Assembly: GCA_038087875.1 (NCBI GenBank)
Contig: CM075991.1
Span: forward strand, 2,046,001 to 2,110,000
Length of the DNA stretch: 64,000 nt
Reading direction: 5' to 3'
Source: Malacoraja senta
Taxonomy: Eukaryota
A model generated the notes under the pieces. That model was given only the letters and a program-made list of their open reading frames with translations. It was not told where the DNA came from and ran no database searches. How positions within the stretch are numbered: the stretch's first letter is position 1; each line of letters opens with the position of its first letter. The translations under genes and the position numbers were made by a program. This document shows positions 301-22,963 of the stretch, piece by piece.

Positions 301-305
301 CCCAG

Positions 306-496
306 AGCGATCCCCTCACCGGCCCATTCTCCAGGCGGGCCTGCCTTCCAACAAGACGGTGATGGTGGGCAGTGATGTGGAGTTTATGTGCAAGGTCTAC
401 AGCGACTCCCAGCACCACATCCAGTGGCTCAAGCACGTCATGGTCAACGGCAGCAGCTTCGGGCCCGATGGCTCTCCCTACATCCAAGTGCTGAAG
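306..496 (+). CDS. FGFR1: FGFR1-like Ig domain III exon IIIa, copy 1 (internal exon, 191 bp)
   Basis: cccAG acceptor after a long CT tract and GTACGT donor. Translates (E)[63 protein letters not shown], matching the FGFR D2-D3 linker and first half of D3; phase 1 to phase 0. Confidence 0.93.
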
Positions 497-529
497 GTAC
501 GTCCTTGGCCGCCAGCTTTGGCCAGTCTA

Positions 530-1030
530 GGCTTGGATGAGGTGGGGACGGTCGACTCAGATGACTGCCCGTGGGTGGGCATAGACACGATGGGCCGAAT
601 GGCCCGTTTCCACGCTGTACCACTATTTGACATGGTGGGACCACGGGTGGGGCAATCATTGCAGATGGGTTTCCTATGGGTGGGCATAGACTTAATGGGA
701 TGAATGGCCTGTTTCCACACTGTACGCCTCTATTGGACAACCCGCCCAGGTGCGTTTGATCATTGGACGAGGTGTGGGCGGTCAATGCACATGGGTTCCC
801 ACGGGTGGTCATGGACATAATGGGCCGAATGGCCTGTTAGCAGGCTATATGACTAGATCAGACTGGCTGCGCATATGTGTGCTTCATCTGATTTGGCATG
901 AATGAGGGGGAGGGTGGAGACAGTAAGTGAAGATGGCTGCCCGTGGGTCGGCATGACCAAGTGGGCTGAATGGCCTGTTTCCAGGCTGTAGAGCGTTTCC
1001 CCAGACAACGTGGATGAGGTGTGGGTGCAA
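530..1030 (+). repeat. Degenerate ~85-120 bp minisatellite in the intron after IIIa (also ~8735-9320 and ~16345-16950)
   Basis: Recurring GGATGAGGTG...GGGTGGGCATAGAC...ATGGGCCGAATGGCCTGTTTCC blocks resembling the CR1/SINE 3' tail; block number differs between units. Confidence 0.7.
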
Positions 1031-2769
1031 GAGGGAACAGGCTGCTTGGGACTGTCCCCAGAGAGTGCTCATGGCTGCCCCTGGAGGTTGGAGGGCCACA
1101 AGACATCATTAGAGTGTCGTCTGCTCAGAGCTGCTCATCCTGATATTAACCCTCGCTCGCAGGGGAGAGTTAAAGAGCCCTTCCCTCCTGTCCACAGTCA
1201 CGTTCGCCTAGTGTTAGGCGACCAGGGTGGCACGGTGGCGCAGCGGGTAGAGCCGCTGCCTCACAGAGCCAGAGAGTTAGCTTCGATCCTGGCCTCGGGT
1301 GCTGTCGGTGTGGAGTTTCCACGTTCTCCCTGTGACCACTAGGTTTGCTCCGGGTGCTCCGATTTCCTCCCACATCCCAAAGACGTGCGGGCTTGTAGGT
1401 TAATTGCCCCTAGTGTGTAGGGAGTGGATGAGAAAGTGGGATTACGTGGAACTGGTGATCGATGGTCGGCGTGGACTCGGCGGGCAGAAGGGCCTGGGTT
1501 CCATGCTGTATCTCTGAACTAAACTGGTGTAGACCTTTGTTTAATTTCCCTTCAAGGTGTCAGTGGCTTCAAGGGACCATCTACGCCCATGGCAACTGAG
1601 GGCGAGGGATAGATATCAAAGAGCGTGGACACTGTGTGGGGTTTGCTCTGTGCACCGATCAGCTGTGATCCTCTTCTGCCCTCGACCTTCCCCGGAGATA
1701 GCCCAGGGGTACCCGATCTCTCGTCCTCCCTCCCCCGTCCTGGAAATACCAACGGGTTCCTTGGAGATGAAAGGCGAGGTCCTCTGAGGGCAGATTATCC
1801 CAGGGATCAGAAGTGTGATGGGACAGTGCTGGAGTTCACAGCTATAAACCCATCACTGATCAGACATCCCAAAGCAAAACGCCGCAGATGCTGAAAAATC
1901 TAAACATAAAGCCCACGAACACCGGGGGCCACTGTAGAGTTGCTGCCTCACAGCGCCAGAGACCCGGGTTCGATCCTGACTACGGCTGCTGTCTGTACGG
2001 AGTTTGTACGTTCTCCCCGTGCCCCGCGTGGGTTTCCTCCGGGTGCTTCGGTTTCCTCCCACATTCCACAACGACATGCGGGTTTGTTGGTTAATCGGCC
2101 CCCTGTAAATTGTAAATGTGTAGGGAGTGGATGAGAAAGTGGAATAACATAGAACTCGTGTGATTGGTCAGCATGGACTCAGTGGGCCGAAGGGCCTGTT
2201 CCGCGCAGTATCTCTAAACTTTTTAGGGCTGAAGGGATCTAGGGATATGGGGAAAAGGCAGGAAGGGTGCACTGACTTTAGATGATCAGCCATGATCATA
2301 TTGAATGGCGGTGCTGGCTCGAAGGGCCGAATGGCCTACTCCTGCACCTTTTTGTTTTCTAACTAAGCCGGGAGCTAACCTTCGAGGATTTCACCCGCCC
2401 AATTTCTCGGCGAGCCCCACAAGTGCCATTCGAGGCATCTCTTCTTCCTTTCAGCCTCCCCGACCTCCCCTGCCTCCCCCCCCCCCCCCCCGTCCAGTCC
2501 CGTGGATTGTGTCTCTATTTTCTCCATGCGACCCATCGCACGTATGCGGAGATGGTGACGGGTTTTAACATGTTACATGAGGACCTGTTTTGCTTCCTAG
2601 GGAAAGGTGTGGACTACTGCAGTCCTGGAACGTTACCTTTAAGCTTTAAGCCCATGGACCTCGCTCAGAGGTGTGGCGAGTGTGACCAATAACGGTGTCC
2701 ACCTATGTCTGTCTCTCCACAGTTCTCATCCCATCGGCTTGTCATGTTTCCTTCCGTTTTCTCTTCTAG

Positions 2770-2914
2770 ACGGCTGGTGTTAACACAACGGATAAAGAAA
2801 TGGAGGCTCTCTATTTACGGAATGTTACTTTTGAGGATGCGGGGCAGTATACATGCTTGGCGGGTAATTCTATTGGGATATCCCATCACTCTGCATGGTT
2901 GACAGTTCTTCAAG
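2770..2914 (+). CDS. FGFR1: FGFR1-like exon IIIc, copy 1 (145 bp)
   Basis: ttctAG...GTACAT. Translates [48 protein letters not shown]; the [12 protein letters not shown] and [10 protein letters not shown] motifs are FGFR1-type IIIc. Confidence 0.93.
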
Positions 2915-4882
2915 GTACATACTGCTCTCTTTTCTCTTATGATACACACTTTCCAACAAAGGCCTGTGCCAGCTACTGCTTCTAAGTGTGTGGTGGGGGG
3001 GGGGGGGGGGGAGATGGCCAGAAGCCAAAGGGCCTGCCCCCTACAATTGGTCCCGCGTTTGCCCCTGTTCACTCTGAAGGCCTGCAGTCTCCCTGTGCAT
3101 TTGCAATCGGTTTACACCCAGACTTTGACAGGACTGGTGGCGTTTCCGCGTCGCGAGTTGCGTCTGGCGACAGTCCACAGCCAGAGGTTACGGGGCGAAG
3201 GCAGGAGAAAAAAGATTAGGAGGGAGAGAGTTTTCAAGACAGAGTTAAACAGCTCTTAGGACCAATTGAATCAAGGGGTACGGGGAGAAAGCAGGAACGG
3301 GGTACTGATGTGTAGAAAAGAACTGCAGATGCTGGTTTAACTCGAAGGTAGATACAAAATGCAGGAGTGATTTAGGATGATCAGCCATGATCATATTGAA
3401 AGGCAAAGGGCCGAATGGCCTACTCCTGCACCTATTTTCTATGTAGATCGGCCATGATAGAATGGCGGAGTAGACTTGATGGGCTGAATGGCCTAATTCT
3501 ACTCCATAATAAGTTATGACCTTATAACTGCACTCAAGTGAAAGCAGCCAGGGTTAGGTTAAGGTTTGTTATTGTCACCTGTGCCAAGGTACAGTGGAAA
3601 GCTTTGTTCTGCATGCTATCCGGATACATCAGATAATACTGCACAGAAATATAATCGTCAAACTCAATTACAACAAGTAGAGCAAAGGGGAAGATACAGA
3701 GTGCAGAATATAGTTCTCAGCATTGTAGCGCACTGGTTCCAGAGACAAAGTCCAATGTCGCAATGGGGTAGAGGTGAATTGGACAGTACCCGAGCTTATG
3801 GAAGGACCGACCGTTCAGAAGCCCGATAACAGAGGGGATGAAGCTGTTCCTGAGTCTGGTGATGCGGGCTTTCAAGCTTCTGCATCTTCTGCCGGACGGG
3901 AGCTGGAAGAGAAGGAATGATGAGTCATTGATTATGTTGGCTGCTTTCCCGAGACAGCGTGAAGTGTAGATGGTGGTGTCAGTGATGGGGGCGTCTGGTC
4001 TGTGTGACGGATTGGGCTACATGTACAACACTCTCCAATGTCTAGCAGTAAACAGTTGGTGAGTCGGAGAGAGTCCCGACTTAGCCCCCATTTTGGAAGA
4101 TGTAGCTGCCAGCCCCCACCTCGTGGTAAACCAATGGGCCTTGCACAGGGGGGGGGAGGGGCGGACCGGTCTGACCGCTTTCGGTGCCTTCAGTGCCCGT
4201 GAATCTGAGCGGCTCCTCGCTTCAAGAAGCAGCGTGCCAACCCCAGGGCCGACTAACTCGGAAATGGCCGGCGCAGGTCTGCCAGGCTGCACGGTGTCAG
4301 GCCAATTCCCGATGCCTACTGCCTGCTCGACCCTGCTCCAGAGCCGTGCCGGGTTAGCCAGCGTTGGAGTGTGTGCCGATTTTTGTTGGAAAGGGAAAGA
4401 AAAAAAACAGCATTTTCTTGGGGTTGTTGTGGTTGTGTATTTTTGCATGAACTCTGTGCCAACTTACTACTTCCTGCACCGCATACCCAACCCCTCGGGC
4501 ATGCCCGCTTGATGCCACTTCACTCCTCTGTTGAAGTGACCATCAACGGCACGTTGGCAAGAAGCTGATAATTGGCAGCAGGGGGGGAAGTTGCCATGTT
4601 GGGTCAACCGTGGTGAAGCATGGGTCAACCATGGTCAACCATGGCCCCGGCATAGGTCAACCTTCCTCAATTATCAGTGGCATCTCCACGCACTTGCCAA
4701 ACGTGGACCTCTTTGAGATGAGGAGGGGGGGGGCGAGTTGGTGAGCCTTTAACAAACTGCGTTCACTTTAGTTCATGTGTGGGAGGGAGGGGGGAGGCAG
4801 CTTGCACTTTTGCACAATGTTTTTAAATCTTTGCATATTCAGCGTGCTTCATTTGTTGTGTGGGACATTTAAAATATATATA

Positions 4883-6498
4883 CAGTGGCTTGCAAAAGTA
4901 TTCATACCCCTTGAACTTTTCCACATTTTGTCACGTTACAACCACAAACGTAAATGTATTTTATTGGGATTTTATGTGATAGACCAACACAAAGTGGCGC
5001 ATTATTGTGAAGTGGAAGGAAAATGATACATGGTTTTCACATTTTTTTACAAATAAAAAACTGAAAAGTGTCGCGTGCAAAAGTATTCAGCCCCCTTTAC
5101 TCTGATACCCCTAAATAAAATCCAGTGCAACCAATTGCCTTCAGAAGTCACCTAATTAGTAAATAGAGTCCACTTGTGTGTAATCTAATCTCAGTATAAA
5201 TACAGCTGTTCTGTGAAGGCCTCAGAGGTTTGTTAGGGAACATTAGTGAACAAACAGCATCACGAAGCCCAAGGAACACACCAGACAGGTCAGGGATAAA
5301 GTTGTGGAGAAGTTTAAAGCAGGGTTAGGTTATAAACAAATATCCCAAGCTTTGAACATCTCACGGAGCACTGTTCAATCCATCATCCGAAAATGGAAAG
5401 AGTATGGCACAACTGCAAACCTACCAAGACATGGCCGTCCACCTAAACTGACAGGCCGGGCAAGGAGAGCATTGATCAGAGAAGCAGCCAAGAGCCCCAT
5501 GGTAACTCTGGAGGAGCTGCAGAGATCCACAGCTCAGGTGGGAGAATCTGTCCACAGGACAACTATTAGTCGTGCACTCCACAAATCTGGCCTTTATGGA
5601 AGAGTGGCAAGAAGAAAGCCATTGTTGAAAAAAAGCCATAAGAAATCCCGTTTGCAGTTTGCCACAAGCCATGTGGGGGACACATCAAACATGTGGAGGA
5701 AGGTGCTCTGGTCAGATGAGACCAAAATTGAAGTTTTTGGCCTAAATACAAAACGCTATGTGTGGCGGAAACCTAACACTGCACATCACCCTGAACACAC
5801 CATCCCCACTGTGAAACATGGTGGTGGCAGCATCATGCTGTGGGGATGCTTTTCTTCAGCAGGGACAGGGAAGCTGGTCAGAGTTGATGGGAAGATGGAT
5901 GGAGCCAAATACAGGGCAATCTTGGAAGAAAACCTGTTAGAGTCTGCAAAAGACTTGAGACTGGTGCGGAGGTTCACCTTCCAGCAGGACAACGACCCTA
6001 AACATACAGCCAGAGCTACAATGGAATGGTTTAGATCAAAGCATATTCATGTGTTAGAATGGCCCAGTCAAAGTCTAGACCTAAATCTAATTGAGAATCT
6101 CTGGCAAGACTTGAAAATTGCTGTTCACAGACGCTCTCCATCCAATCTGACTGAGCTTGAGCTATTTTGCAAAGAAGAATGGGCAAACATTTCAGTCTCT
6201 AGATGTGCAAAGCTGGTAGAGACATACCCAAAAGACTTGCAGCTGTAATTGCAGTGAAAGGTAGTTCTACAAAGTATTGACTCAGGGGGGCTGAATACTT
6301 TTGCACGCAACACTTTTCAGTTTTTTATTTGTAAAAAAATTTGAAAACCATGTATCATTTTCCTTCCACTTCACAATTATGCACCACTTTGTGTTGGTCT
6401 ATCACATAAAATCCCAATAAAATACATTTACGTTTGTGGTTGTAACGTGACAAAATGTGGAAAAGTTCAAGGGGTATGAATACTTTTGCAAGCCACTG
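4883..6498 (+). mobile_element. Tc1-family DNA transposon (IR/DR type), full length, 1616 bp
   Basis: ~210-bp TIRs starting CAGTGGCTTGCAAAAGTATTCA with about 4 mismatches and inner AAAAGTATTCA direct repeats; TA target. Empty (TA)n sites are present in units 2 and 3. Confidence 0.97.
5262..6280 (+). pseudogene. Tc1 DDE transposase, slightly decayed
   Basis: HTH N-terminus, WSDE, FQQDND and SLDLNLIEN (normally SPDLNPIEN). The presumed start codon reads ACG at 5262, and a 1-bp frameshift near 6230 removes the RLAAVIAVKGSSTKY tail. Confidence 0.9.
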
Positions 6499-6999
6499 TA
6501 TATGTAGAACAGGCATCTCTCACTGCAAAGGTCGATTTACGGGGTTGGATTCCTGTCTCAGGTACAGTCTCCTGTTTGTTCTCACAGCTGAATTAATTAT
6601 TATTCTTTTAAATTTAAATAACCCTGTTCATGTGTCCGCAAAGTAAACCCTGAGGTAAACACGGACACTGGGTATTAAGCTCGTTAAGTTGTCGGGGCAG
6701 TAGAATTGACACAGCTTCCCAGGTGCAAAAACTTTGCTTCAGTTTTTGACTCCCTTAGGTAACAGTCTGTTCTCCCATATCGTGTGCTGCCAAGAGTCGA
6801 GAGTGTTTTATTGTCATGTGTCCCAGATAGAGCAAAGAAATTCTTACTTGCAGCAGCACAACACAATATCTAAACACACTGCACTAGTAAACATTATAAT
6901 AAACGAGAAATAAAAGTCCAGTGTGTGTATATATACGCAGGCACGCACACGTACACATAGAAAACATACAATATTAACCATCAACTGACTGTCATATGT

Positions 7000-7608
7000 T
7001 GATAGAATGGAGCAGTTGGCCTTGTACACTCTGGAGTTTAGAAGGATGAGAGGAAACCTTATTGAAACATATAAGATTATTAATGGTTTGGACACACTAG
7101 AGGCAGGAAACATGTTCCCAATATTGGGGGAGTCCAGAACCAGAGGCCACAGTTTAAGATTAAGGGGTGAGCCATTTAGAACGGAGACAATGAAACACTT
7201 TTTCTCACAGAAAGTTGATAGTCTGTGGAATTGTCTGCTTCAGAGGGTGGTGGAGGCAGGTTCTCTGGATACTTTCAAGAGAGAGATAGATATGGCTCTC
7301 AAAGATAGCTGAGTCAGGGGATATGGGGAGAAGGATGGAACGGGGTACTGATTGGGGATGATCAGCCATGATCACACTGAATGGCGGTGCTGGCTCCTGC
7401 ACCTATTATCTATTGTCTATTGTCTAATAGAAAGGATGTTGTCAAGCTGGAAGGGGTGCAGAGAAGATTTACGAGGATGTTGCCAGGACTCGAGGGCCTG
7501 AGCTACAGGGAGAGGTTGAGTAGGCTAGGGCTTAATTCCTTGGAGTGCAGGAGGATGCGGGGTGATCTTATAGAGATGTATAAAATCATGAGGGGAATAG
7601 ATAGGGTA
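7000..7608 (+). mobile_element. CR1 (HER1-like) LINE 3' fragments; paralogues ~14650-15247 and ~25460-26210; others ~20105-20380, ~34075-34860, ~37893-38310, ~38950-39425
   Basis: CR1 C-terminal motifs LYTLEFRRMRGNLIETYKI, ESRTRGHSL and LEGVQRRFTRMLPGL. Confidence 0.88.
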
Positions 7609-8454
7609 CTGATTGTGGATGATCAGCCATGATCACATTGAATGGCGGTGCTGGCTCGGAGGGTCAAATGGACTACTCCTGCACCTATTGTCTATTGTCA
7701 CATACGTACACACACAAAATAATAGTCCAATGATAACAATAATAGTCTGTTGTGGTTCTGAACTTATGTGGAGGTTGGAGGGTTTAACAGCCAAATGGCT
7801 GTTGGGAAGAAGCTGTTCCTGCACCTGGACCTTACACGGGTTCTTATATTGTGACTCGAAGGTGCCAGAAACATGGCGACTCGTGTACGGACAGTGTGGT
7901 CTACTGCCTTACACTACAGTACTCCAGTATGGTTGTGCCTAATGTATAGAAGGATTGTCACTGAAGTGTAAGCAAACAAGCATTTTCACTGTACTTACTT
8001 ACAAGTACCAATAACGTACCATTGAACCATGATACTATCTGATCAGATTGGATAGCACGCAAAACAAAGGTTACATGACAATTGTAAACCCAAATCTCTC
8101 TCTCTCTCTCTCCCCTTCTCTGTCTCGCTCGCTCGCTCTCTGTCTGTCTCTCTCCCCCTGATTCACTCTACCCGCACTCTCTCTCGCTCTCTATACCCCC
8201 TCCTCCGCTCCCTTTCCCTCTGTCTCTCCCCCCTCCCCTTCTCTCTTCTCTATCCCTCTCCCCTCCTTTTTTCCTCTCTCTGCCCTCCGTCTCTCCCCCT
8301 CTCCCGTTCTCTCTTCTCTATCCCACTATCTCTCTCCCCGCTCTCTCCCTCCTCCACTCGCTCTCCTCTCTCTTCCCTCTCTCTACCCTCTCTCCTTCTT
8401 GTCTCTCTCCAACCTCTCTCTCTCTCTCTCCGTGTCCCCGTGGCCCTCTCTCAG

Positions 8455-8645
8455 AGCGATCCCCTCACCGGCCCATTCTCCAGGCGGGCCTGCCTGCCAA
8501 CAAGACGGTGACGGTGGGCAGCGATGTGGAGTTTGTGTGCAAGGTCTACAGCGACCGCCAGCCCCACATTCAATGGCTCAAGCACGTTATGGTCAACGGC
8601 AGCAGGATGCGGCCCGATGGCTCGCCCTACGTCCAAGTGCTGAAG
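8455..8645 (+). CDS. FGFR1: FGFR1-like exon IIIa, copy 2
   Basis: AG/GT-bounded, 191 bp: (E)[63 protein letters not shown]. Confidence 0.93.
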
Positions 8646-8678
8646 GTACGTCCTTGGCCGCCAGCTTTCGCCAGTCTA

Positions 8679-8726
8679 ATAATAATAATAATAGATTTTA
8701 TTTATATAGCGCGTTTCCGGACTCAG
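8679..8726 (-). mobile_element. 48-bp extreme 3' end of a LINE/SINE with (TAT)n tail, unit-2 specific
   Basis: Flanked by a GTCTA duplication (8674-8678 and 8727-8731); absent from units 1 and 3. Confidence 0.65.
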
Positions 8727-11700: not shown

Positions 11701-12062
11701 CCCCTCAAGTGCCATTCATTGCCTCTCTTCTTCCTTTCAGCCTCTCCCCGGCCCGTCCCGTGGATTGTGGCTCCATTTTCTCCATGCGTCCCATCGCTCG
11801 CATGCGGAGATGGGCTTGGTCAAAATCCAAAATGGCGGCGGGTTTTAACACGTAACATGAGGACCTGTTTTGCTTCCTAGGGACAGGTGTGGACTCCTGC
11901 AGTCCTGGAAGGTCACCTGCCAGCCAGGTATTGCTTTAAGCCCATGGACCTCCCTGGGAGGTGGGGCGAGTGTGACCAATAACAGTGGTGTCCGCCTATG
12001 TCTGTCTCTCCACAGTTCTCATCTCATCTGCTTGTCCCGTTTGCTTCCGTTTTCTCTTCTAG

Positions 12063-12207
12063 ACGGCTGGTGTTAACACAACGGATAAAGAAATGGAGGC
12101 TCTCTATTTACGGAATGTTACTTTTGATGATGCGGGGCAGTATACATGCTTGGCGGGTAATTCTACTGGGATATCCCACCACTCTGCATGGTTGACAGTT
12201 CTTCAAG
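12063..12207 (+). CDS. FGFR1: FGFR1-like exon IIIc, copy 2
   Basis: AG/GT-bounded, 145 bp: [48 protein letters not shown]. Confidence 0.93.
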
Positions 12208-15200
12208 GTACATACTGCTCTCTTTTCTCTTATGATTCACACCTTCCAACAAAGGCCTGTGCCAGCTACTGCTTCTAAAGAGGGAGCCCGCACTAAATTC
12301 ATCCTTTTTGCCAGCCGGTGTGTGGTTGGAGGGGGGGGGAGAGGGCCAGAAGCCAAAGGGCCTGCCCCCGCCAATTGGGCCCGCGTTTGCCCCTGTTCAC
12401 TCTGCAGGCCTGCAGTCTCCCTGTGCATTTGCCATCGGTTTACACCCAGACATTGACAGGACTAGTGGCGTTTCCGCGTCGCGAGTTGCGTCTGGCGAAG
12501 GCAGGAGACAGGTTACGGGGTGAAGGCAGGAGAAAAAAGATTAGGAGGGAGAGAGTTTTCAAGAGAGAGTTAAACATAGCTCTTAGGACCAACGGAATCA
12601 AGGGATATGGGGAGAAAGCAGGAACGGGGTACTGATGTGTAGGAAAGAACTGCAGATGCTGGTTTAAATCGAAGGTAGACACAAAATGCAGGAGTCATTT
12701 AGGATGATCAGCAATGATCATATTGAAAGGCGAAGGGCCGAATGGCCTACTCCTGCACCTATTTTCTATGTAGATCGGCTATGATAGAATGGCGGAGTAG
12801 ACTTCATGGGCCGAATGGCCTAATTCTACTCCTATCACTTATGACCTTATAACTGCACTCATGTGAAAGCGGCCAGGGTTCGGTTATGGTTTGTTATTGT
12901 CACCTGTGCCAAGGTACAGTGGAAAGCTTTGTTCTCCATGCTATCCGGGTACATCAGATAATACTGCACAGAAATATAATCGTCAAACTCAATTACAAGA
13001 GGTGGAGCAAAGGGGAAGATACAGAGTGCAGAATATAGTTCTCAGCATTGTAGCGCACTAGTTCCAGAGACAAAGTCCAATGTCGCAATGGGGTAGAGGT
13101 GAATCGGACAGTACCCGAGCTTATGGAAGGACCGACCGTTCAGAAGCCCGATAACAGAGGGGAAGAAGCTGTTCCTGAGTCTGGTGATGCGGGCTTTCAA
13201 GCTTCTGCATCTTCTGCCGGACGGGAGCTGGAAGAGAAGGAATGATGAGTCATTGATTATGTTGGCTGCTTTCTCGAGACAGCGTGAAGTGTAGATGGTG
13301 GTGTCAGTGATGGGGGCATCTGGTCTGTGTGATGGATTGGGCTACATGTACAACACTCTCCAATGTCTAGCGGTAGACAGTTGGTGAGTCGGAGAGAGTC
13401 CCGACTTAGCCCCCATTTTGGAAGATGTAGCTGCCATCCCACCTCGTGGTAAACCCATGGGCCTTGCACAGGGGGGGGGGAGGGGCGGACCGGTCTGACC
13501 GCTTTCGGTGCCTTCAGTGCCCGTAAATCTGAGCGGCTCCTCGCTTCAAGAAGCAGCGTGCCAACCCCAGGGCCGACTAACTCAGAGATGGCCGGCGCAG
13601 GTCTGTCAGGCTGCACGGTGTCAGGCCAATGACCGATGCCTACTGCCTGCTCGACCCTGCTCCAGAGCCGTGCCGGGTTAGCCAGCGTTGGAGTGTGTAC
13701 CGACTTTTGTTGGAAATGGAAACAAAAAAAAAAGCATTTTCTTGGGGTTGTTGTGGTTGTGTATTTTTGCATGAACTCTGTGCCAACTTACTACTTCCTG
13801 CACCGCATACCCAACCCCTCGGGCATGCCCGTTGATGCCACTTCATTCCTCTGTTGAAGTGACTATCAACGGCACGTTGGCAAGAAGCTGATAATTGGCA
13901 GCAGGGGGGGAAGTTGCCATGTTGGGTCAACCGTGGTGAAGCATGGGTCAACCATGGTCAACCATGGCCCCGGCATGGGTCAACCTTCCTCAATTATCAG
14001 TGGCATCTCCACGCACTTGCAAACGTGGACCTCTTTGAGATGAGGGGGGGGGGGCGAGTTGGTGAGCCTTTAACAAACTTTAGTTCACGTGTGGGATGAG
14101 GGGGAGGCAGCTTGCACTTTTGCACAATCTTTTTAAATCTTTGCATATTCAGCACGCTTCATTTGTTGTGCGCGACATTTAAAAAATATATATATATGTA
14201 GAACAGAAATCTGTCACTGCAAAGGTCGATTTACGGGGTTGGATTCCTGTCTCAGGTACAGTCTCCTGTTTGTTCTCGCAGCTGAATTAATTAAAAAAAC
14301 GCTGTTCTTGTGTCCGCAGAGTAAACCCTGAGGTAAACACGGACACTGGGCATTAAGCTCGTTAAGTTGTCGGGGCAGTAGGATTGACGCAGCTTGCCAG
14401 GTGCAAAAACTTTGCTTCAGTTTCGTGTGCTGCCAAGAGTCGAGAGTGTTTTATTGCCATGTGTCCCAGATAGAGCAAAGAAATTCTTACTTACAGCAGC
14501 ACAACACAATATCTAAACACACTGCACTAGTAAACAGTATAATAAACGAGAAATACAAGTTCAGTGTGTGTGTGTGTATATACGCAGGCACGCACACGTA
14601 CACATAGAAAACATACAATATGAACAAACAACTGACGGTCATATGTTGATAGAATGGAGCAGTTGGCCTTGTACACTCTGGAGTTTAGAAGGAAGAGAGG
14701 GTTCCTTATTGAAACATATTAATGGTTTGGACACACCAGAGGCAGGAAACATGTTCCCAATCTTGGGGGAGTACAGAACCAGAGGCCACAGTTTAAGAAT
14801 AAGGGGTAAGCCATTTAGAACGGAGACGAGGAAACACTTTTTCTCACAGAGAGTTGTGAGTCTGTGGAATTCTCTACCTCAGAGGGTGGTGGAGGCAGGT
14901 TCTCTGGATACTTTCAAGAGAGAGCTAGATATGGCTTATAAAGATAGCGGAGTCAGGGGATATGGGGAGAAGGCTGGAACGGGGTACTGATTGGGGATGA
15001 TCAGCCATGATCACACTGAATGGCGGTGCTGGCTCCTGCACCTATTATCTATTGTCTATTGACTAATAGAAAGGATGTTGTCAAGCTGGAAGGGGAGCAG
15101 AGAAGATTTACGAGGATGTTGCCAGGACTCGAGGGCCTGAGCTACAGGGAGAGGTTGAGTAGGCTAGGGCTTAATTCCTTGGAGTGCAGGAGGATGCGGG

Positions 15201-16118
15201 GTGATCTTATAGAGATGTATAAAATCATGAGGGGAATAGATAGGGTACTGATTGTGAATGATCAGCCATGATCACATTGAATGGCGGTGCTGGCTCGAAA
15301 GGCCGAATGGCATACTCCTGCACCTATTGTCTATTGTCACATACGTACGCACAAAAAAACAATCAATAATAGTCCAATGATAACAATATTAGTCTTATGG
15401 TTCTGAGCTTATTTGGAGGTTGGAGTGTTTAATAGCCAAATGGCTGTTGGGAAGAAGCTGTTCCTGCACCTGGACCTTACACGGGTTCTTATATTGTGAC
15501 TCGAAGGTGCCAGAAACATGTCGACTCGTGTACGGACAGTGTGGTCTACTGCCTTACACTCCAGTACTCCAGTATGGTTGTGCCTAATGTATAGAAGGAT
15601 TGTCACTGAAGTGTAAGCAAACATGCATTTTCACTGTACTTACTTACAAGTACCAATAACGTACCATTGAACCTTGATACTATCTGATCAGATTGGATAG
15701 CACGCAAAAGAAAGGTTACATGACAATTGTAAACCTAAATCTCTCTCTCGCTCTCTCCCCCTCTCTGTCTCGCTCGCTCACCCTCTGTCTGTCTCTCTCC
15801 CCCTCCTTCACTCTACCCGCACTCTCTCTCGCTCTCTATACCCTCTCCTCCGCTCCCTTTCCCTCTCTTCCCTCTGTCTCTCCCCCTCCCCTTCTCTCTT
15901 CTCTATCCCTCTCCCCTCTCTCCTCCTCCCCTCCCTTTTTCCTCTCTCTTCCCTCCCTCTCCCCCTCTCCCCTTCACTCTTATCTATCCCTCTATCTCTC
16001 TCCTCCCTCTCCCTCCTCCACTCCCTCTCCTCTCTCTCTTCCCTCTCTCTACCCTCTCTCACTCTTGTCTCTCTCCAACCTCTCTCTCTCTCTCCATGCC
16101 CCCGTGGCCCTCTCCCAG

Positions 16119-16309
16119 AGCGATCCCCTCACCGGCCCATTCTCGAGGCGGGCCTGCCTTCCAACAAGACGGTGACGGTGGGCAGCGATGTGGAGTTTAT
16201 GTGCAAGGTCTACAGCGACTCCCAGCCCCACATCCAGTGGCTCAAGCACATCATGGTCAACGGCAGCAGCTTCGGGCCCGATGGCTCTCCCTACATCCAA
16301 GTGCTGAAG
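16119..16309 (+). CDS. FGFR1: FGFR1-like exon IIIa, copy 3
   Basis: AG/GT-bounded, 191 bp: (E)[63 protein letters not shown]. Confidence 0.93.
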
Positions 16310-19197
16310 GTACGTCCTTGGCCGCCAGCTTTGGCCAGTCTAGGCTTGGATGAGGTGGGGGCGGTCAACCCAGATGACCGCCCGTGGGTCGGCATAGACA
16401 CGATGGGCCGAATGGCCCGTTTCCACTCTGTACCACTATCTGCCATGGTGTAGATCCACGGGTGAACAAACGTTGCAGATAGGTTTCCTATGGTTGGGCG
16501 TAGACACGATGGGCCGAATGGCCCGTTTCCACGCTGTACCACTATCTGACATGGTTGGACCACGGGTGGGGCAATCATTGCAGATGGGTTTCCTATGGGT
16601 GGGCATAGACTTAATGGGCTGAATGGCCTGTTTCCACACTGTACGCCTCTATTGGACAACCCGCCCAGGTGCGTTTGATCATTGGACGAGGTGGGGGGCG
16701 GTCAATGCACATGGGTTCCCATGGGTGGGCATGGACATAGTGGGCCGAATGGCCTGCTATCAGGCTATATGACTAGATCAGACTGGCTGCCCATGTGTGT
16801 GCTTCATCTGATTTGGCATGAATGAGGGGGAGGGGGGAGACAGTAAGTGAAGATGGCTACCCGTGGGTCGGCATGACCAAGTGGGCTGAATGGCCTGTTT
16901 CCAGGCTGTAGGGCGTTTCCCCCGACAATGTGGATGAGGTGTGGGTGCAAGAGGGAACAGGCTGCTTGGGACTGTCCCCAGAGAGTGCTCATGGCTGCCC
17001 CTGGAGGTTGGAGGGGTACAAGACATCATTAGAGTGTCGTCTGCTCAGAGCTGCTCATCCTGATATTAACCCTCGCTAGCAGGGGAGAGTTAAAGAGCCC
17101 TTCCCTCCTGTCCACAGTCACGTTCGCCTAGTGTTAGGCGACCAGGGTGGCACGGTGGCGCAGCGGGTAGAGACGCTGCCTCACAGAGCCAGAGAGTTAG
17201 CTTCGATCCTGACCTCGGGTGCTGTCGGTGTGGAGTTTCCACGTTCTCCTGTGACCACTAGGTTTGCTCCGGGTGCTCCGATTTCCTCCCACATCCCAAA
17301 GACGTGCGGGCTCGTAGGTTAATTGCCCCTAGTGTGTAGGGAGTGGATGAGAAAGTGGGATTACGTGGAACTGGTGATCGATGGTTAGCGTGGACTCGGC
17401 GGGCAGAAGGGCCTGGGTTCCATGCTGTATCTCTGAACTAAACTGGTGTAAACCGTGGTTTAATTCCCCTTCAAGGTGTCAGTGGCTTCAAGGGACCATC
17501 TTTGCCCATTGCAACTGAGGGCGATGGAAAGATATCAAAGAGCGTGGACACTGGGTGGGGTTTGCTCTGTGCACCGATCAGCTGTGACCCTCTTCTGCCC
17601 TCGACCTTCCCCGGAGACAGCCCAGGGGTACCCGATCTCTCGTCCTCCCTCCCCCGTCCTGGAAATACCAACGGGTTCCTTGGAGATGAAAGGCGAGGGC
17701 CTCTGAGGGCAGATTATCCCAGGGATCAGAAGTGTGATGTGACAGTGCTGGAGTTCACCGCTATAAACCCATCATTGATCAGACATCCCAAAGCAAAATG
17801 CCGCAGATGCTGAAAATCTAAACATAAAGCCCACGAACACCGGGCGCCAATGTAGAGTTGCTGCCTCACAGCGCCAGAGACCCGGGTTCGATCCTGACTA
17901 CGGGTGCTGTCTGTACGGAGTTTGTACGTTCTCCCCGTGACCCGCGTGGGTTTCCTCCGGGTGCTCCGGTTTCGTCCCACACCCCACAACGACATGCGGG
18001 TTTGTTGGTTAATCGGCCCTCTGTAAATTGCCCCTAATGTGTAGGGAGTGGATGAGAAAGTGGAATAACATAGAACTCGTGTGAATGGTCGGCATGGACT
18101 CAGTGGGCCGAAGGGCCTGTTCCGTGCTGTATCTCTAAACTAGAAAAATTGCTACAATTCTTTAAGTCGAGATAGCCTCTGCTTTGACGGCAGATGGGTG
18201 ATGTTGGGGGTGTCAGTGTGACTGCTGGCCCTTCAGTCCCCCTGTGATGATCTTGCCCCCCTAGTGGGTTGGGGAGAGTGTGTGGGTGGGGGGGGGGGTG
18301 GGGGTAGCCGCCACTTCGGCAGGGTAGTGGTCTCCAGGTCACGGCGGGCAAAGACCCAAGCTGGTGCCAGCTCCGAACGCCGGGCGCGGGCCCCACCCGA
18401 ACCGTGGACCATGTACAACGCAGAACAAGGCCGTTCAACCCCTGTACTCTGTGTTGGCCAACACAGAGCTGCCCGCTCCCCTTACCACTGTGGCCCTGCA
18501 GGATGGGAACGGATTGGAAGGATGTGGGCAAATGGGGCTATCATAGACGGGGCATCTTGGACGAGTTGGGCCGGAGGGTGCTGCCTCGGTGCTGTACGAC
18601 TATGAGAGGCCATGGCACTGAAAATATCTCCTCATCTCCCACCAAGTCACTTGAAGGTTCCTCAGGCCCCAGCGACGTGGGAAGTCCTGTCCCTCTGATC
18701 ACCAGTTGATCTGACGAGCTGGGACAAACAGCTTCTCCCTCACAACCTGCGTCAGGCAATCGGTTTCCTTGTGATCGGCCTGGATCCATGCACACGCCAA
18801 CCCTCACCTCTGCTCTTTGACTCGCTCACTCCAACTCTGATAAGGCCAAGATTGTTTTTTTTTAAAAATTAAATATCCTCACAGGATATCCCGTAGCAGT
18901 GAAGACAGCCAGCTGGTTGGGTTATTGAACGACAGCCAGTGTTCTGGACCATTGATTCACAGAAACAAGGTTCATTGGCCATTTAAGCGCTGGGTGGCTT
19001 CTTCTTGGGTCACCTAGGGAGGTATGACATCAGCCTGGGGCCCAGCACTCGTGAAATCTCTCCCACCCACATCCCCACCCCCACAATGGAAAAATCCCTC
19101 CTGCCTTCCCCGGGTGGTCAGCATGGACTTGGTGGGCCGAAGGGCCCGTTTCCATGCTGTATCTCTAATCAGGAACCAACCTAAACACAACATGAGG

Positions 19198-19332
19198 TTG
19201 TGTAGGAAGGAACTTCAGATGCTGGTTTACACCGAAGACAGACACAATGTGCTGGAGTAACTCAGCGGGTCTGGCAGCCCCTCCGGAGTAAAGCAATAGG
19301 TGACGTTTCGGGTCGAGACCCTTCTTCAGACA
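19198..19332 (-). repeat. Penelope pLTR-derived dispersed repeat, representative copy (many others, e.g. ~36990-37450, 40690-41190, 47620-48030, 55260-56000, 56845-56965, 57895-57985, 59963-60058)
   Basis: Recurrent AAGGAACTGCAGATGCTGG...GCTGGAGTAACTCAGCGGGTCAGGCAGCATCTCTGGAG...TGACGTTTCGGGTCGAGACCCTTCTTCAGAC. Confidence 0.7.
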
Positions 19333-20494
19333 GAGTCAGGGGAGAGGGAAACTAGAGGTATGGGAGATGAACAGAAGAACAGAAGGCAGGGTGGGTTAAT
19401 TTGCTGTAATTTGCCCCCATTGTGGTAGCATCACAGGGGAGTTGATGGGAGAGCAAAACGGGCTGAGTGTAAGTGGGCAGTCAATGGGTCAGCATGGGCT
19501 CAGTGGGCCGAAGGGGCTGCCTTCATGCTGTTTGACTCTGTGACTAACGGAAGTCTTGCCCAACCGAGTCATCAATCTCCATGATGTCCAACAGCCAGCG
19601 TCACAGGGCGTGTAGCATAACTCCAGGACTATCGTGGACGTGAAGGAAAATGGCCGAACTCCTGGTGTACAGTGGTGACGGTGCCTCTGGTCAACTGGTT
19701 GGGATGACCAGGAAACAAGGCCCTTCGGCCCATGCAGTCCATGTTACCTACCGGTGGAAGGATGGGGGGGGGGCGAGGAGTGGAGTGAATTTGCCAGTGT
19801 TGGGGTATCAAACAGGAAAGATGAATTTGGCCGGGCCCTCAACAGTCAAGAGGGCTCCGAGCTGTGGCATGGGGGTCCCACAGAGGGGACAACCTCACCT
19901 TTACACCTCCCTACCCCTATCGCCCATCTGGGTCCGCCACGACGTAGAGCTTTCCTTCCGTCGCCTCTGCCTCCGTGCTTTTTACTATGTGAAGGAATCC
20001 TCACCACCCAGTGATGGCCCCTTCTCCCGTCTCCCCCTCCTCATGGACCCCCCCCCCCCCCCCCCCCGGACAACCTCCCTCCCTCTCTAGGCCTCTCTGT
20101 TTTGAACAGATTAAGGGGTAGGCCATTTAGGACTGAGATGAGGAAAAATGTTTTCACCCAGAGAGTTGTGAATCCGTGGAATTCTCTGCCATAGAAGGCA
20201 GTGGAGGCCAATTCACTGGATGTCTTCAAGAGAGAGTTAGATTCAGCTCTTAGGGCTAATGGAATCAAGGGATATGGGGAGAAAGCAGGAATTGGGTACA
20301 GATTGTGGATGATCATAGTGAATGGCGGTGCTGGCTCGAGGGGGCCGAATGGCCTGCTCCGGAATCTATTTCTATGTTTCTGTGCCACTGCCTCGGTCTG
20401 GTCACATCAGTGCAGGGCGGGCCCGGGGTTTGTGTGTTCACTGATGTCTCTTGTTCACGGCTACAATCAACGTTCTCTCATTCATCTGTTCTAG

Positions 20495-20639
20495 CATTCG
20501 GGGATTAATAGTTCGGATGCGGAGCTACTGACTCTGTTCAATGTGACTGAAGCCGACACCGGGGAGTATGTTTGTAAAGTTTCCAATTATATTGGTGAGA
20601 CCAATCAGTCGGCCTGGCTCACTGGCCCACAGTTGGAAG
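20495..20639 (+). CDS. FGFR1: FGFR1-like alternative exon IIIb (only copy in the window, 145 bp)
   Basis: ttctAG...GTAATG. Translates HSGINSSDAELLTLFNVTEADTGEYVCKVSNYIGETNQSAWLTGPQLE, matching FGFR1 IIIb; not in the supplied ORF track. Confidence 0.9.
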
Positions 20640-20801
20640 GTAATGCCCACAGCCTGGCACCGCCTCAGAGACACCGGGCGAGCAAGGGTTAACTGATCTT
20701 GGACGAGTGGGTGAACTCTTCCATTCTGTGATGATGGGACAAGTCTGTGGTCTTTCCCCCCCTTAATTTTCCTGCTGTTTATGTGCAAACCCAATGATGA
20801 A

Positions 20802-20821
20802 CATGGAAAAATGCCCACAAT
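20802..20821 (+). promoter_or_regulatory. IAS2/ISE-2-like intronic splicing element downstream of exon IIIb
   Basis: CATGGAAAAATGCCCACAAT matches the FGFR2 IAS2 motif as I recall it, and is complementary to 22520-22542. Confidence 0.75.
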
Positions 20822-21250
20822 TCCAAAGGACAGTCGCTGCCCCCACTCACTCTCTGTCCTGCCCTGCCCTCTGCTCGCTGTCTTCTGGGGAGAGAGGGCT
20901 GAGGGCAAACCTGGCGAGTGAATCGGCCCCACACCTCTCTCACTCTCCCCTTCTTTCTCCCTCTCTTTCTCTCTCAGTCTCCCTCTTTCTTCCTCCCTCT
21001 CTCCCTCTCTCCCTCTCTCTCTCTCTCTCTTCCTCCTCTCTTTCTCTCTGTCCCCCCTCTCTCTTTCCTCCTTGTTACCCCTCTTTCCTCCCCCTCTCTC
21101 CCTTTCTCTCTCCATCTCTCTACCTCCCCCTCCGCCTCTCTCTCTCCTTCTCCCTCACTTGTTCCTTCTCACTCTCTCCCCCAACCTCACACCCCCACTC
21201 TCCCCCCCCCCTCCCACCCCTCCTCGCCATCCACTCTCTCCCCCCCTCAT

Positions 21251-21575
21251 GGGTGGCACAGTGGCGCGGCGGTAGAGCTGCTGCCTCACAGCGCCAGTGA
21301 CCCGGGTTCGATCCTGACTTCAGGTGCTGCCTGTGTGCGGAGTTTGCACGTTCTCCCTGTGCCCGTGTGGGTTTTCTCCAGGTGCTCCGGTTTCCTCCCA
21401 CATCCCAAAGACGTGCAGGTTTGTAGGTTAATTGGCCCTCAGTAAATTGCTCCTAGAGTGTAGGGAGTGGAAGTGGGGTAACACAGAACTAGTGTAAGCG
21501 GGTGATCGGTGGCTGGCGTGGATTCGATGGGCCGAATGTCCTGCTTCCATGCTATATAACTAAACTAAACTAAAC
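21251..21575 (+). mobile_element. tRNA-derived V-SINE (HE1-like), representative copy; others at approx. 1225-1525, 1930-2220, 9517-9815, 10225-10520, 17146-17445, 17850-18142, 33321-33545, 38580-38850, 53565-53850, 53973-54300, 57480-57780 (+) and 32905-33215, 54680-54990, 56080-56390, 56965-57290 (-)
   Basis: A box GGTGGCGCAGCGGTAG and B box GGTTCGATCC, central GGAGTTTGCACGTTCTCCC...GGTTTCCTCCCACA domain, CR1-like tail and (TAAAC)n end. Confidence 0.85.
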
Positions 21576-22519
21576 TTGAGGCTGAGTGGGTTAGTAGGCC
21601 TCTGTAACAAGCTGTACTGCCCTATAATACCCCTGGCCTTATTGGTTGGTGGATTGGGCACGTTGTCCTTCCCCGGTGCTTCTAAACCAAGAGAGCTCTT
21701 GGAATTCAAAGTTCTCCCCAACACCACAAATGCCGTCTCACACATCCGAGTACAGTCACGTGTACTTGGCCGGTAGCTGGGCCTCTGCGATTGTCCAGTG
21801 TAGGGGGGATATCTGTGGCCTGGCCACCCACAACCTCCAGGGGCAACAGAGGCCGATGGAAGGTGGCAATACAGATCCACTGGAGGAGCGCTAATCCTGA
21901 GGGAAAAGGCACTTGGTTGGTAACTGGGTCATTGATAGCGTCGGGTGTACGGGGAATATCTGCGGCCTGGAGTCCCACAATATGTTTTACCTGCCCGGCC
22001 TGGGCAACAGAGGGAGTTGAAAGGCACCAATGCTGGTCCACTCGTGACAAGCTAATCCTGAGGGAACTCTCCAGGGAAAAACAAGGCAGCTTCTCAAAAG
22101 TCCCAAAGAACCAAAGACCTACAGGTTGTAGGTTAATTGGCTTGATATAAATGTAAAATTATCCCTAGTATGTGTAGGAATAGTGTAAGTGTGCGGGGAT
22201 CACTGGTCAGTGCAGACTCGGTGGGCGGAAGGGCCTGTTTCCGCGCTGTATCTCTAAGCTTCTTAGGGCTAAAGGGATCAAGGGATATGGGGGAAAAGGC
22301 AGGAAGGGGGTACTGATTTTAGATGATCAGCCATGATCATATTGAATGGTGGTGCTGGCTTGAAGGGCAGAATGGCCTACTCCTGCACCTTTTTGTTTTC
22401 TAACTAAGCCGGGAGCTAACCTTCGAGGATTTCATCCGCCCAATTTCTCGGCGAGCCACTCAAGTGCCATTCGTTGCCTCTCTTCTTCCTTTCAGCCTCT
22501 CCCCCGGCCCGTCCCGTGG

Positions 22520-22542
22520 ATTGTGGCTCCATTTTCTCCATG
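22520..22542 (+). promoter_or_regulatory. ISAR/IAS3-like intronic splicing element upstream of IIIc (orphan copies at 2506-2528 and 11764-11786)
   Basis: ATTGTGGCTCCATTTTCTCCATG; its reverse complement CATGGAGAAAATGGAGCCACAAT aligns with the IAS2-like motif. Confidence 0.7.
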
Positions 22543-22818
22543 CGTCCCATCGCTCGCTTGCGGAGATGGGCTTGGTCAAAAACCAAAATTGTGGTGGGTT
22601 TTAACACGTAACATGAGGACCTGTTTTGCTTCCTAGGGACAGGTGTGGACTCCTGCAGTCCTGGAAGGTCACCTGCCAGCCAGGTGTTGCTTTATGCCCA
22701 TGGACCTCCCTGGGAGGTGGGGCGAGTGTGACCAATAACAGCGGTGTCCGTCTATGTCTGGCTCTCCACAGTTCTCGTCTCATCTGCTTGCCCCGTTTGC
22801 TTCCGTTTTCTCTTCTAG

Positions 22819-22963
22819 ACGGCTAGTGTTAACACAACGGATCAAGAAATGGAGGCTCTCTATTTACGGAAAGTTACTTTTGAGGATGCGGGGCAGTATA
22901 CATGCTTGGCGGGTAATTCTATTGGGATATCCCACCACTCTGCATGGTTGACAGTTCTTCAAG
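22819..22963 (+). CDS. FGFR1: FGFR1-like exon IIIc, copy 3
   Basis: AG/GT-bounded, 145 bp: [48 protein letters not shown]. Confidence 0.93.

What the first reader, a model, noticed from the sequence alone, without database searches (positions are those of the whole stretch)
306..22963. Tandem array of FGFR1 Ig-domain-III exon modules: candidate poly-IgIII protein or combinatorial ligand-specificity cassette
Seen: order is IIIa-IIIc-IIIa-IIIc-IIIa-IIIb-IIIc. All seven exons keep exact length, AG/GT sites, open frames and the Ig cysteines, although the surrounding introns carry many indels and TE insertions. IIIa+IIIc (or IIIb) is 336 nt, phase 1 to phase 1, and the IIIc-to-next-IIIa junction reads ...VLQ-E-RSPH in frame. 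Established: vertebrate FGFR1-3 have one IIIa and mutually exclusive IIIb/IIIc, and D3 sets FGF specificity. Inference: the locus could make (a) a chain of three or more D3 domains, (b) Dscam-like combinations of any IIIa with any downstream IIIb/IIIc, or (c) nothing, if it is a young pseudogenic amplicon. I know of no described FGFR with amplified D3. The array extends 5' beyond the window.
Basis: partly seen in the sequence, partly recalled or inferred. Interest (0 to 1): 0.9.

Follow-up and report, generated by a model that had tools for sequence, protein, structure and literature searches.

The report
Truncated skate FGFR1 with tripled domain
Skates carry a second, cut-down copy of the growth-factor receptor gene FGFR1 that lacks the membrane anchor, the kinase and the second binding domain but repeats the third binding domain two or three times, so it may encode a secreted binding protein or may be a slowly decaying duplicate.

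Summary
The array is real but is not a combinatorial receptor cassette. It has exactly three head-to-tail units and does not run on 5'. It is the 3' part of a partial fgfr1 duplicate in a skate genome: signal peptide, D1, acid box, (IIIa-IIIc)x3 and a short tail, an open 519-aa frame with no D2, transmembrane helix or kinase. A separate kinase-bearing fgfr1 lies 12 Mb away on the same scaffold. RefSeq models of Amblyraja radiata (three D3) and Leucoraja erinacea (two D3) have the same architecture and share derived residues, so it is neither an assembly artefact nor a private amplicon. IIIb is deleted in two units and shortened by 6 nt in the third. Constraint is weak: pN/pS among units is 0.65-1.2, yet no unit has a stop or frameshift and changes across three species are conservative (P about 0.005). 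No RNA from this locus was seen. Best reading: a secreted, non-signalling poly-D3c protein that cannot trap FGF in the usual way (0.48); main rival: a decaying duplicate (0.40). Kinase-less multi-D3 fgfr1 models also arose separately in teleosts. I found no paper on either. Interest 0.5.

The parts
1..7603 (+). Tandem unit 1 (begins 561 bp before the window): IIIa-IIIc, IIIb region deleted
   Evidence: self-alignment; breakpoints
306..496 (+). IIIa exon, copy 1 (191 nt)
2770..2914 (+). IIIc exon, copy 1 (145 nt)
4875..6506 (+). Tc1/mariner element inserted in unit 1 only (221-bp inverted ends, 97.7% identical; 332-aa transposase frame 5250-6245)
7604..15242 (+). Tandem unit 2: IIIa-IIIc, IIIb region deleted (equivalent of 18866-22042)
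8455..8645 (+). IIIa exon, copy 2 (191 nt; closest to canonical skate FGFR1)
12063..12207 (+). IIIc exon, copy 2 (145 nt)
15243..26025 (+). Tandem unit 3: IIIa-IIIb-IIIc, the only unit that keeps the ancestral IIIb interval
16119..16309 (+). IIIa exon, copy 3 (191 nt)
20495..20639 (+). IIIb exon, single copy, 145 nt, with an in-frame 6-nt deletion relative to shark and ray FGFR1 IIIb
22819..22963 (+). IIIc exon, copy 3 (145 nt); carries G315S and K321Q (human numbering), shared with the Leucoraja and Amblyraja paralogs
27377..27459 (+). Candidate terminal coding exon (AG acceptor, 27-residue tail, stop) lying out of frame inside a LINE endonuclease region; matches the tail of the A. radiata model XP_032869863 at 81% over 27 residues

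Best explanation
A partial duplicate of fgfr1, formed in the skate lineage, kept the signal-peptide, D1 and acid-box exons, lost both D2 exons and everything from the transmembrane exon onward, and multiplied the IIIa-(IIIb)-IIIc block in tandem. SHOWN: the anatomy, the open 519-aa frame, the separate kinase-bearing fgfr1, and the same architecture in gene models of two other skates. INFERRED: because IIIa+IIIc is a symmetric phase-1 module, ordinary sequential splicing gives SP-D1-acid box-D3c-D3c-D3c-short tail, a secreted glycoprotein that cannot signal. INFERRED from known structure: without D2 it has no heparan-sulfate site and half of the FGF site, so it should not be a conventional FGF trap. 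What is multiplied is the D3c domain, whose groove binds the Klotho receptor-binding arm and the FGF23 N-terminus. The most likely activity is therefore a weak multivalent D3c-groove binder that dampens endocrine FGF/Klotho signalling. It is held by weak selection on fold and frame while surface residues drift. Odds by step: anatomy about 0.9; spliced and secreted as a chain about 0.65; selected function of this kind about 0.35-0.45.
For: Anatomy: SP exon at C15:2014941-2015031, D1 at 2034028-2034291, acid box at 2036793-2036906, then the array. No D2, TM or kinase match in the 264 kb examined. The joined frame is 519 aa with no internal stop, no hydrophobic 19-mer above 0.84 after the signal peptide, and 468 of 520 positions identical to A. 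radiata P0001. Separate fgfr1 with SP and kinase exons (84-100% to A. radiata) at C15:14.226-14.268 Mb. Same architecture in RefSeq models of A. radiata (XP_032869859-864, three D3, 3 protein isoforms) and L. erinacea (XP_055518012-016, two D3, 2 isoforms); each is recorded on a contig of the same length as that species' full-length fgfr1. Shared derived G315S+K321Q in the last IIIc of all three species. Both named species' models share an MNSC start and an alternative DTTFH tail; several accessions per protein and alternative ends suggest transcript support (inference from how RefSeq models are built, recalled). The window's D3 units group with skate FGFR1 at 100/95. All 6 IIIa/IIIc exons intact: neutral probability 0.04 with the intron indel rate, 0.12 with half of it, 0.28 with none. 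The 31 distinct amino-acid changes over 8 units of three species are more conservative than simulated neutral ones (mean BLOSUM62 0.29 against -0.45, P 0.004-0.005; residue already seen in canonical FGFRs 11 against about 6, P 0.02-0.03), and none hits a Cys or Trp. D1 differs at 1 of 87 residues from A. radiata fgfr1. [quoted passage not shown] An AlphaFold model of the Leucoraja protein gives three Ig sandwiches, pLDDT mostly 70-90.
Against: No transcript of this locus was seen; no reads were laid on it. No Logan-derived protein with a paralog-specific junction was found: the junction motifs occur only in RefSeq models among the 353 proteins held. pN/pS between units is 0.65, 1.02 and 1.20, and exons diverge about as much as introns. 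The window's own 17 changes are not significantly conservative (P 0.07-0.33), and two of the four cross-species statistics are not clearly significant (P 0.05-0.06 and 0.14-0.21; no correction for four tests). 11 of the 31 changes hit columns invariant in 56 canonical D3c domains, e.g. P285H, G301R, N317D, N330K, I347T. Homology with fgfr1 starts only about 1.3 kb before the SP exon, and a CpG island about 11 kb upstream of the canonical SP exon is not duplicated, so the native promoter is probably absent. The tail exon is exonised LINE sequence, and the DTTFH tail of the other skates was not found in the window. In each named species the paralog's D1 is identical to its own fgfr1 and the acid box shares species-specific residues, so gene conversion rather than selection may keep exons intact. 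No binding was tested.
Confidence: 0.48

Rival explanations
1. An old partial duplicate without selected function. It may be transcribed from a captured promoter, but its exons are kept open by slow skate mutation, by occasional gene conversion from fgfr1 and between units, and by chance; tandem copies came from unequal crossing-over between repeats.
For: pN/pS about 1 among units. 4-11 amino-acid changes per unit against the canonical skate D3c, while the A. radiata canonical differs by 2. Hits to invariant residues. Probable loss of the native promoter. IIIb decaying. LINE-derived tail. Mosaic relationships among units and species-specific identity of D1 with fgfr1 point to conversion. Intact frames are still 4-28% probable under neutrality.
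Against: All 8 units in three species are open in the available sequences or models (models are chosen for open frames, so this is biased). Changes are conservative across species, P about 0.005. SP, D1 and acid-box exons and all splice sites are also intact. Similar kinase-less multi-D3 models recur in teleosts.
Confidence: 0.4
2. Dscam-like cassette: any IIIa is spliced to any downstream IIIb/IIIc to vary the ligand specificity of a receptor.
For: Phases allow any IIIa to join any downstream IIIc or IIIb. The A. radiata and L. erinacea loci have alternative isoforms.
Against: No D2, TM or kinase at the locus, and no assembly gap from 16.5 kb before the window to its end. IIIb is lost in 2 of 3 units and shortened in the third. 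5 of 5 skate paralog models include the units in series. A. radiata units 1 and 2 are identical in protein, which leaves nothing to choose between.
Confidence: 0.04
3. Assembly or scaffolding error: the array is a stutter, or it is the misplaced ectodomain of the single real fgfr1, whose D1-to-TM part is missing at a gap.
For: The canonical locus has a gap at C15:14243902, and its D1, D2, D3 and TM exons are absent from the assembly. The paralog has a gap between its SP and D1 exons at nearly the homologous place. The D1 and acid-box exons here look canonical.
Against: Units differ by 3.5-5% and by a unit-specific Tc1 insertion and deletions. Two distinct SP exons with collinear, 3-5% diverged intron DNA exist. 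41 kb follow the last IIIc without a gap or a TM exon. Two independent skate annotations hold both a full-length fgfr1 and this architecture.
Confidence: 0.05

Closest known systems
Vertebrate FGFR1 (IIIb/IIIc splicing; PMC5703972 and PMC10284700, passages seen)
   Same: SP, D1, acid box, IIIa, IIIb and IIIc exons are FGFR1-derived, and the units group with skate FGFR1.
   Different: No D2, TM or kinase; the whole IIIa-IIIc module is tripled; IIIb is lost or shortened; the product cannot signal.
RefSeq 'FGFR1-like' models of Amblyraja radiata (XP_032869859-864) and Leucoraja erinacea (XP_055518012-016)
   Same: Same SP-D1-acid box-(D3c)n-short tail architecture; 468 of 520 positions identical to the A. 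radiata model; shared derived IIIc residues; same LINE-derived tail as two A. radiata isoforms.
   Different: These are automatic annotations with no description found. n is 3 or 2. The window lacks their MNSC start and no DTTFH tail exon was found.
Ligand-binding-domain multiplication in TGF-beta receptors (PMC13187141; abstract, passages and Discussion seen)
   Same: Recurrent, lineage-specific tandem copies of a ligand-binding domain in vertebrate receptors, with relaxed constraint where a normal paralog exists.
   Different: Those are full-length signalling receptors with tested function. Here the gene is truncated, another family, half of the ligand site is missing, and nothing is tested.
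Soluble FGFR ectodomain isoforms and FGFRL1 (recalled; a human soluble FGFR1 entry appears)
   Same: Kinase-less FGFR-type Ig proteins that can act as decoys.
   Different: They keep D2-D3 and so bind FGF and heparan sulfate; FGFRL1 keeps a TM helix. They are splice forms or an ancient gene, not a D3-multiplied duplicate.
Ray-finned-fish FGFR models with an extra D3-like domain (fgfr4 of gar, sturgeon, bichir; fgfr1a of herrings; kinase-less poly-D3 models of sea breams and butterflyfishes)
   Same: The IIIa-IIIc module is duplicated.
   Different: Separate origins. Several keep D2, TM and kinase. The teleost poly-D3 models lack D1 and the acid box.

Membership tests
FGFR1 receptor tyrosine kinase | FGFR1-type Ig domains | tested here: met
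   D1 1 of 87 residues from A. radiata FGFR1; D3 units in the skate FGFR1 clade, 100/95
FGFR1 receptor tyrosine kinase | D2 domain (FGF and heparan-sulfate binding) | tested here: not met
   no D2 match between acid box and IIIa in gap-free sequence; no FGFR1 D2 among 63 of 63 candidates scored genome-wide
FGFR1 receptor tyrosine kinase | Transmembrane helix | tested here: not met
   no TM exon match in the locus; highest hydropathy 0.84 after the signal peptide
FGFR1 receptor tyrosine kinase | Split tyrosine-kinase domain | tested here: not met
   FGFR1 kinase exons only at C15:14.246-14.268 Mb
Dscam-type mutually exclusive exon cluster | Array of alternative versions of one exon between constant exons | tested here: not met
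   the repeat is a two-exon symmetric module and no constant downstream receptor exons exist
Dscam-type mutually exclusive exon cluster | Mutually exclusive use in transcripts | not tested
   no reads were laid; 5 of 5 skate models use the units in series
Soluble FGF-trap receptor | Signal peptide, no membrane anchor | tested here: met
   (by sequence only; the SP exon is joined to D1 across an assembly gap)
Soluble FGF-trap receptor | Intact D2-linker-D3 ligand site | tested here: not met
   D2 absent; requirement from PMC10284700
Soluble FGF-trap receptor | Secretion and ligand binding | not testable with these tools
   needs expression and binding assays
Pseudogene | Disabling stops, frameshifts or lost splice sites | tested here: not met
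   519-aa open frame over 10 exons, all with AG/GT ends where expected
Pseudogene | Neutral evolution of coding sites | tested here: inconclusive
   pN/pS 0.65-1.20 against conservative changes across species, P about 0.005

The most novel reading that the evidence does not exclude
Fishes have repeatedly turned fgfr1 duplicates into a class of secreted, D2-less poly-D3c proteins: once in skates and separately in teleosts (11 models from 9 genera among the proteins fetched). These act as multivalent binders of the D3c groove's partners (Klotho co-receptors, FGF N-termini), or of a pathogen ligand that uses D3, and form an undescribed layer of FGF regulation.
Probability: 0.2. Interest if true: 0.78.

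Novelty: new variant of a known kind. Interest (0 to 1): 0.5.

Why it matters
FGFR ectodomain architecture is treated as fixed in vertebrates. If the protein is made and selected, it is a natural FGFR derivative that separates D3c-groove binding from D2-dependent FGF and heparan-sulfate binding, and it extends the recurrent ligand-domain multiplication reported for TGF-beta receptors to FGFR1. The little skate is a laboratory model with RNA data, so the question is cheap to test. There is also a practical point: this paralog is near-identical to fgfr1 in D1 and the acid box, which can mislead probes, read mapping and assembly. Both named skates have D2-skipping 'isoforms' of the canonical gene that may come from such cross-mapping. 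If it is a decaying duplicate, it is an ordinary segmental duplication.

Tried and rejected
Expression: no RNA holder listed (12 runs, 0 on record as RNA), and no reads were laid on the locus, so splicing in this species is open. Two protein searches aimed at spliced junctions (best 120 of 344 and of 383 listed) gave no Logan-derived skate protein with a paralog junction; this is weak, because repeats break such contigs. Single-sequence AlphaFold of the A. radiata model failed (mean pLDDT 33). The alignment-based model of the Leucoraja protein and its fold search (top hits FGFR D2-D3 structures) only confirm Ig domains. No complex was predicted, since a pass would rest on likeness to solved FGFR structures. 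The DTTFH tail exon was sought downstream of the last IIIc with up to 2 mismatches and with up to 5 on a longer pattern; the single hit had internal stops and was rejected. I considered reading the two IIIb losses as independent, but the unit-2 deletion lies inside the unit-1 deletion, so one loss plus a later enlargement fits as well. My recollection that P283R is a human loss-of-function allele was not confirmed (0 papers) and is not used. My recollection that zebrafish FGFR4 has four Ig domains was not confirmed (1 unrelated paper). Literature searches for this gene or class listed 6, 6, 0, 1, 1 and 0 papers. By title and abstract start none describes it; I read passages of three of them (PMC5703972, 10.1101/501023, PMC13187141). 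The library lacks most subscription journals and I opened no supplements, where skate genome papers could list the gene. Earlier scan notes: none. DNA downstream of the window was not fetched; absence of TM and kinase there rests on the genome search (54 of 2086 candidates scored).
Full report
1. Observation. The seven exons are at the stated places, in the stated order, with AG/GT ends and open frames. IIIa matches FGFR D3 structures at E about 1e-32, residues 250-312 of human FGFR1, which fixes the human numbering used below. Self-alignment shows three head-to-tail units: from 561 bp before the window to 7603, 7604-15242, and 15243 to about 26025. Their six long intron alignments differ by 3.5-5.0% substitutions and 0.002-0.008 indels per site; unit 1 alone holds a Tc1 element. 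Two corrections: there is no fourth unit upstream, and IIIb is two codons short against 6 of 6 shark and ray FGFR1 sequences. Units 1 and 2 lack the IIIb interval; the unit-2 deletion lies inside the unit-1 deletion, whose junction falls in a dispersed 290-bp repeat.

2. What the locus is. The window is C15:2046001-2110000 of a 1.94-Gb assembly. It is a skate by inference: D1 differs at 1 of 87 residues from Amblyraja radiata FGFR1 and at 9 of 87 from a stingray. In the 200 kb upstream lie a signal-peptide exon (31 kb before the window), a D1 exon (12 kb) and an acid-box exon (9 kb). There are no D2 exons between the acid box and the first IIIa, where a 4.7-kb retroelement sits, and no TM or kinase exon in the 41 kb after the last IIIc. 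That stretch has no assembly gap; the nearest one lies between the SP and D1 exons. Ten exons joined give an open 519-aa frame: SP-D1-acid box-D3c-D3c-D3c-27-residue tail, with no hydrophobic segment after the signal peptide. The tail exon is read out of frame from a LINE endonuclease region. A second fgfr1 with its own SP exon and kinase exons lies at C15:14.226-14.268 Mb. Its D1-to-TM part is missing at a gap, and no FGFR1 D2 is found in the assembly, so the canonical D3 could not be compared at DNA level. The two loci share collinear DNA around and after the SP exon at 3.3-5.2% substitution in the five long blocks, about the distance between the units, so duplication and tandem amplification are of similar age. 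Homology begins about 1.3 kb before the SP exon and leaves out a CpG island about 11 kb upstream of the canonical SP exon, so the copy probably needed a new promoter (inference).

3. Other genomes. The first and fifth hits of a search with IIIa against longer proteins were RefSeq 'FGFR1-like' models of A. radiata (SP-D1-acid box-D3c x3) and Leucoraja erinacea (x2). These species have 3 and 2 such protein isoforms, several under multiple accessions, besides full-length FGFR1 on a contig of the same length. The window's frame is identical to the A. radiata model at 468 of 520 positions and shares its LINE-derived tail. G315S and K321Q mark the last IIIc in the window, the last in Leucoraja and all three in Amblyraja, and no canonical skate sequence compared. 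The two named species also share an MNSC start and a DTTFH tail that the window lacks. So the gene predates the split of these skates and has kept at least two D3 units. In each named species D1 of the paralog equals that of its own fgfr1, which points to gene conversion. Of 234 proteins held after two searches, 39 have two or more IIIa modules: 5 skate paralog isoforms, 22 other kinase-less models (11 of them D3-only, from 9 teleost genera) and 12 with a kinase. These searches rank multi-D3 proteins first, so this is no frequency, and nearly all are unverified gene models. In a tree of 52 D3 units from 30 chosen proteins plus the window, the skate units form one clade with skate FGFR1 (100/95), apart from the teleost ones: separate origins.

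4. Selection. Against function: pN/pS between units is 0.65, 1.02 and 1.20; units carry 4-11 amino-acid changes against a canonical skate D3c; 11 of 31 distinct changes over the 8 units hit columns invariant in 56 canonical D3c domains. Several lie at 283-285, 313-321 and 347, in loops that I recall as FGF-contacting. For function: the chance that all six IIIa/IIIc exons stay free of stops, frameshifts and splice loss is 0.04, 0.12 or 0.28 depending on the indel rate assumed (4000 runs each; two thirds of indels were taken as frameshifting, while 62 of 70 intron indels are). The 31 changes are more conservative than simulated neutral ones (BLOSUM62, P 0.004-0.005; seen in canonical FGFRs, P 0.02-0.03; invariant columns, P 0.05-0.06; invariant hydrophobic columns, P 0.14-0.21), but the window's own 17 changes are not significant (P 0.07-0.33). 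The test treats each change as one base step, uses four statistics without correction, and relies on gene models chosen for open frames. The picture is weak constraint on frame and fold, with a drifting surface.

5. How it most likely works. IIIa+IIIc is a symmetric phase-1 module, so serial splicing gives a chain of D3c domains behind D1 and the acid box; loss of IIIb in two units makes the chain IIIc-type. D2, D3 and their linker are needed for ligand binding, heparan sulfate binds D2, and the Klotho receptor-binding arm and the FGF23 N-terminus bind the D3 groove of c isoforms (PMC10284700, passages). D1 and the D1-D2 linker are autoinhibitory (PMC8465397, passages). A secreted D1-acid box-(D3c)3 protein should therefore neither signal nor trap paracrine FGFs well; what it multiplies is the D3c groove. 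I commit to a weak, multivalent groove-partner binder that dampens endocrine FGF/Klotho signalling (0.48 for a made and selected protein of this kind; the partner is inference only). Rivals: decaying duplicate (0.40), assembly error (0.05), Dscam-like cassette (0.04). Transcription and splicing in this species are not shown.

6. Comparison and novelty. It fails membership of the FGFR receptor kinases (no D2, TM, kinase), of Dscam-type clusters and of D2-D3 FGF traps, and it lacks the disabling lesions of a pseudogene. The closest described phenomenon is recurrent ligand-binding-domain duplication in TGF-beta receptors (PMC13187141; abstract, passages and Discussion), whose two mentions of FGFR found by the word search are in the reference list. 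The IgIII region is a known hotspot of exon evolution (PMC5703972, passages). The orthologous genes are already in RefSeq as automatic 'FGFR1-like' models; six searches for a description found none in the library held, which lacks most subscription journals, and supplements were not opened. Verdict: a new variant of a known kind, real and shared among skates, with an unexpected convergent echo in teleosts, but with weak evidence of function. Interest 0.5; 0.78 if the convergent secreted class proves functional (probability 0.2).

Noticed in passing
P0003, P0128, P0009, P0013, P0014, P0015, P0129, P0130, P0131, P0137, P0138: Kinase-less, D2-less fgfr1-like gene models made of two or three D3c domains in Chaetodon, Scatophagus, Acanthopagrus, Sparus, Pagothenia, Pagrus, Chelmon, Antennarius and Clarias; independent of the skate gene. 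Worth a survey of its own.
   Followed up: partly
P0010, P0011, P0016, P0025: Full-length fgfr1a models of Polymixia, Clupea, Sardina and Denticeps have a diverged D3c copy at the N-terminus where D1 would stand.
   Followed up: no
P0018, P0019, P0020, P0023, P0024: fgfr4 models of bichir, sturgeons and gar carry an extra N-terminal D3-like domain before D1.
   Followed up: no
P0002, P0004, P0006, P0008, P0132; P0007: Notothenioid fgfr1a models with repeated D2-D3 pairs (Trematomus: three pairs plus TM and kinase); a Mustelus asterias fgfr3 model with D2-D3b followed by D2-D3c.
   Followed up: no
P0044, P0124: Both named skates have a RefSeq isoform of the canonical fgfr1 that skips D2 (acid box joined to IIIa), the junction expected of the paralog; no other shark or ray FGFR1 model held shows it. 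It may be cross-mapping of paralog reads, or a real skip that preceded the duplication.
   Followed up: partly
G000:C15:14243902 and C15:2029507: Assembly gaps at nearly homologous places in fgfr1 and its paralog; the canonical D1-to-TM exons are missing from the assembly. Only one other FGFR locus (C1:379.33-379.36 Mb) was clearly found.
   Followed up: partly
window 4875-6506: Tc1/mariner element with 97.7% identical 221-bp inverted ends and an open 332-aa transposase frame; looks recent.
   Followed up: partly
L024:1330-6041 and window about 42400-47200 (74% alike, opposite strands): Two 4.7-kb retroelements with reverse-transcriptase frames (Pfam RVT_1); the first sits in the intron where the D2 exons would be and has many 81-95% identical copies in the genome.
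   Followed up: partly
window 27202-30700 and 62292-64000: LINE copies (endonuclease and downstream ORF2 pieces), 70-77% alike; the first supplies the candidate terminal exon.
   Followed up: partly
window 48449-48854 and 52974-53377: A 406-bp direct repeat pair, 98.3% identical, about 4.1 kb apart, flanking frames that include an endonuclease domain (50456-51538): a young element with long terminal-type repeats.
   Followed up: no
P0126, P0127: Logan-derived skate FGFR1 proteins that read through the IIIc donor into the intron and stop, i.e. possible soluble D1-D2-D3c forms; the same read-through is open for 23 codons after the window's last IIIc.
   Followed up: no
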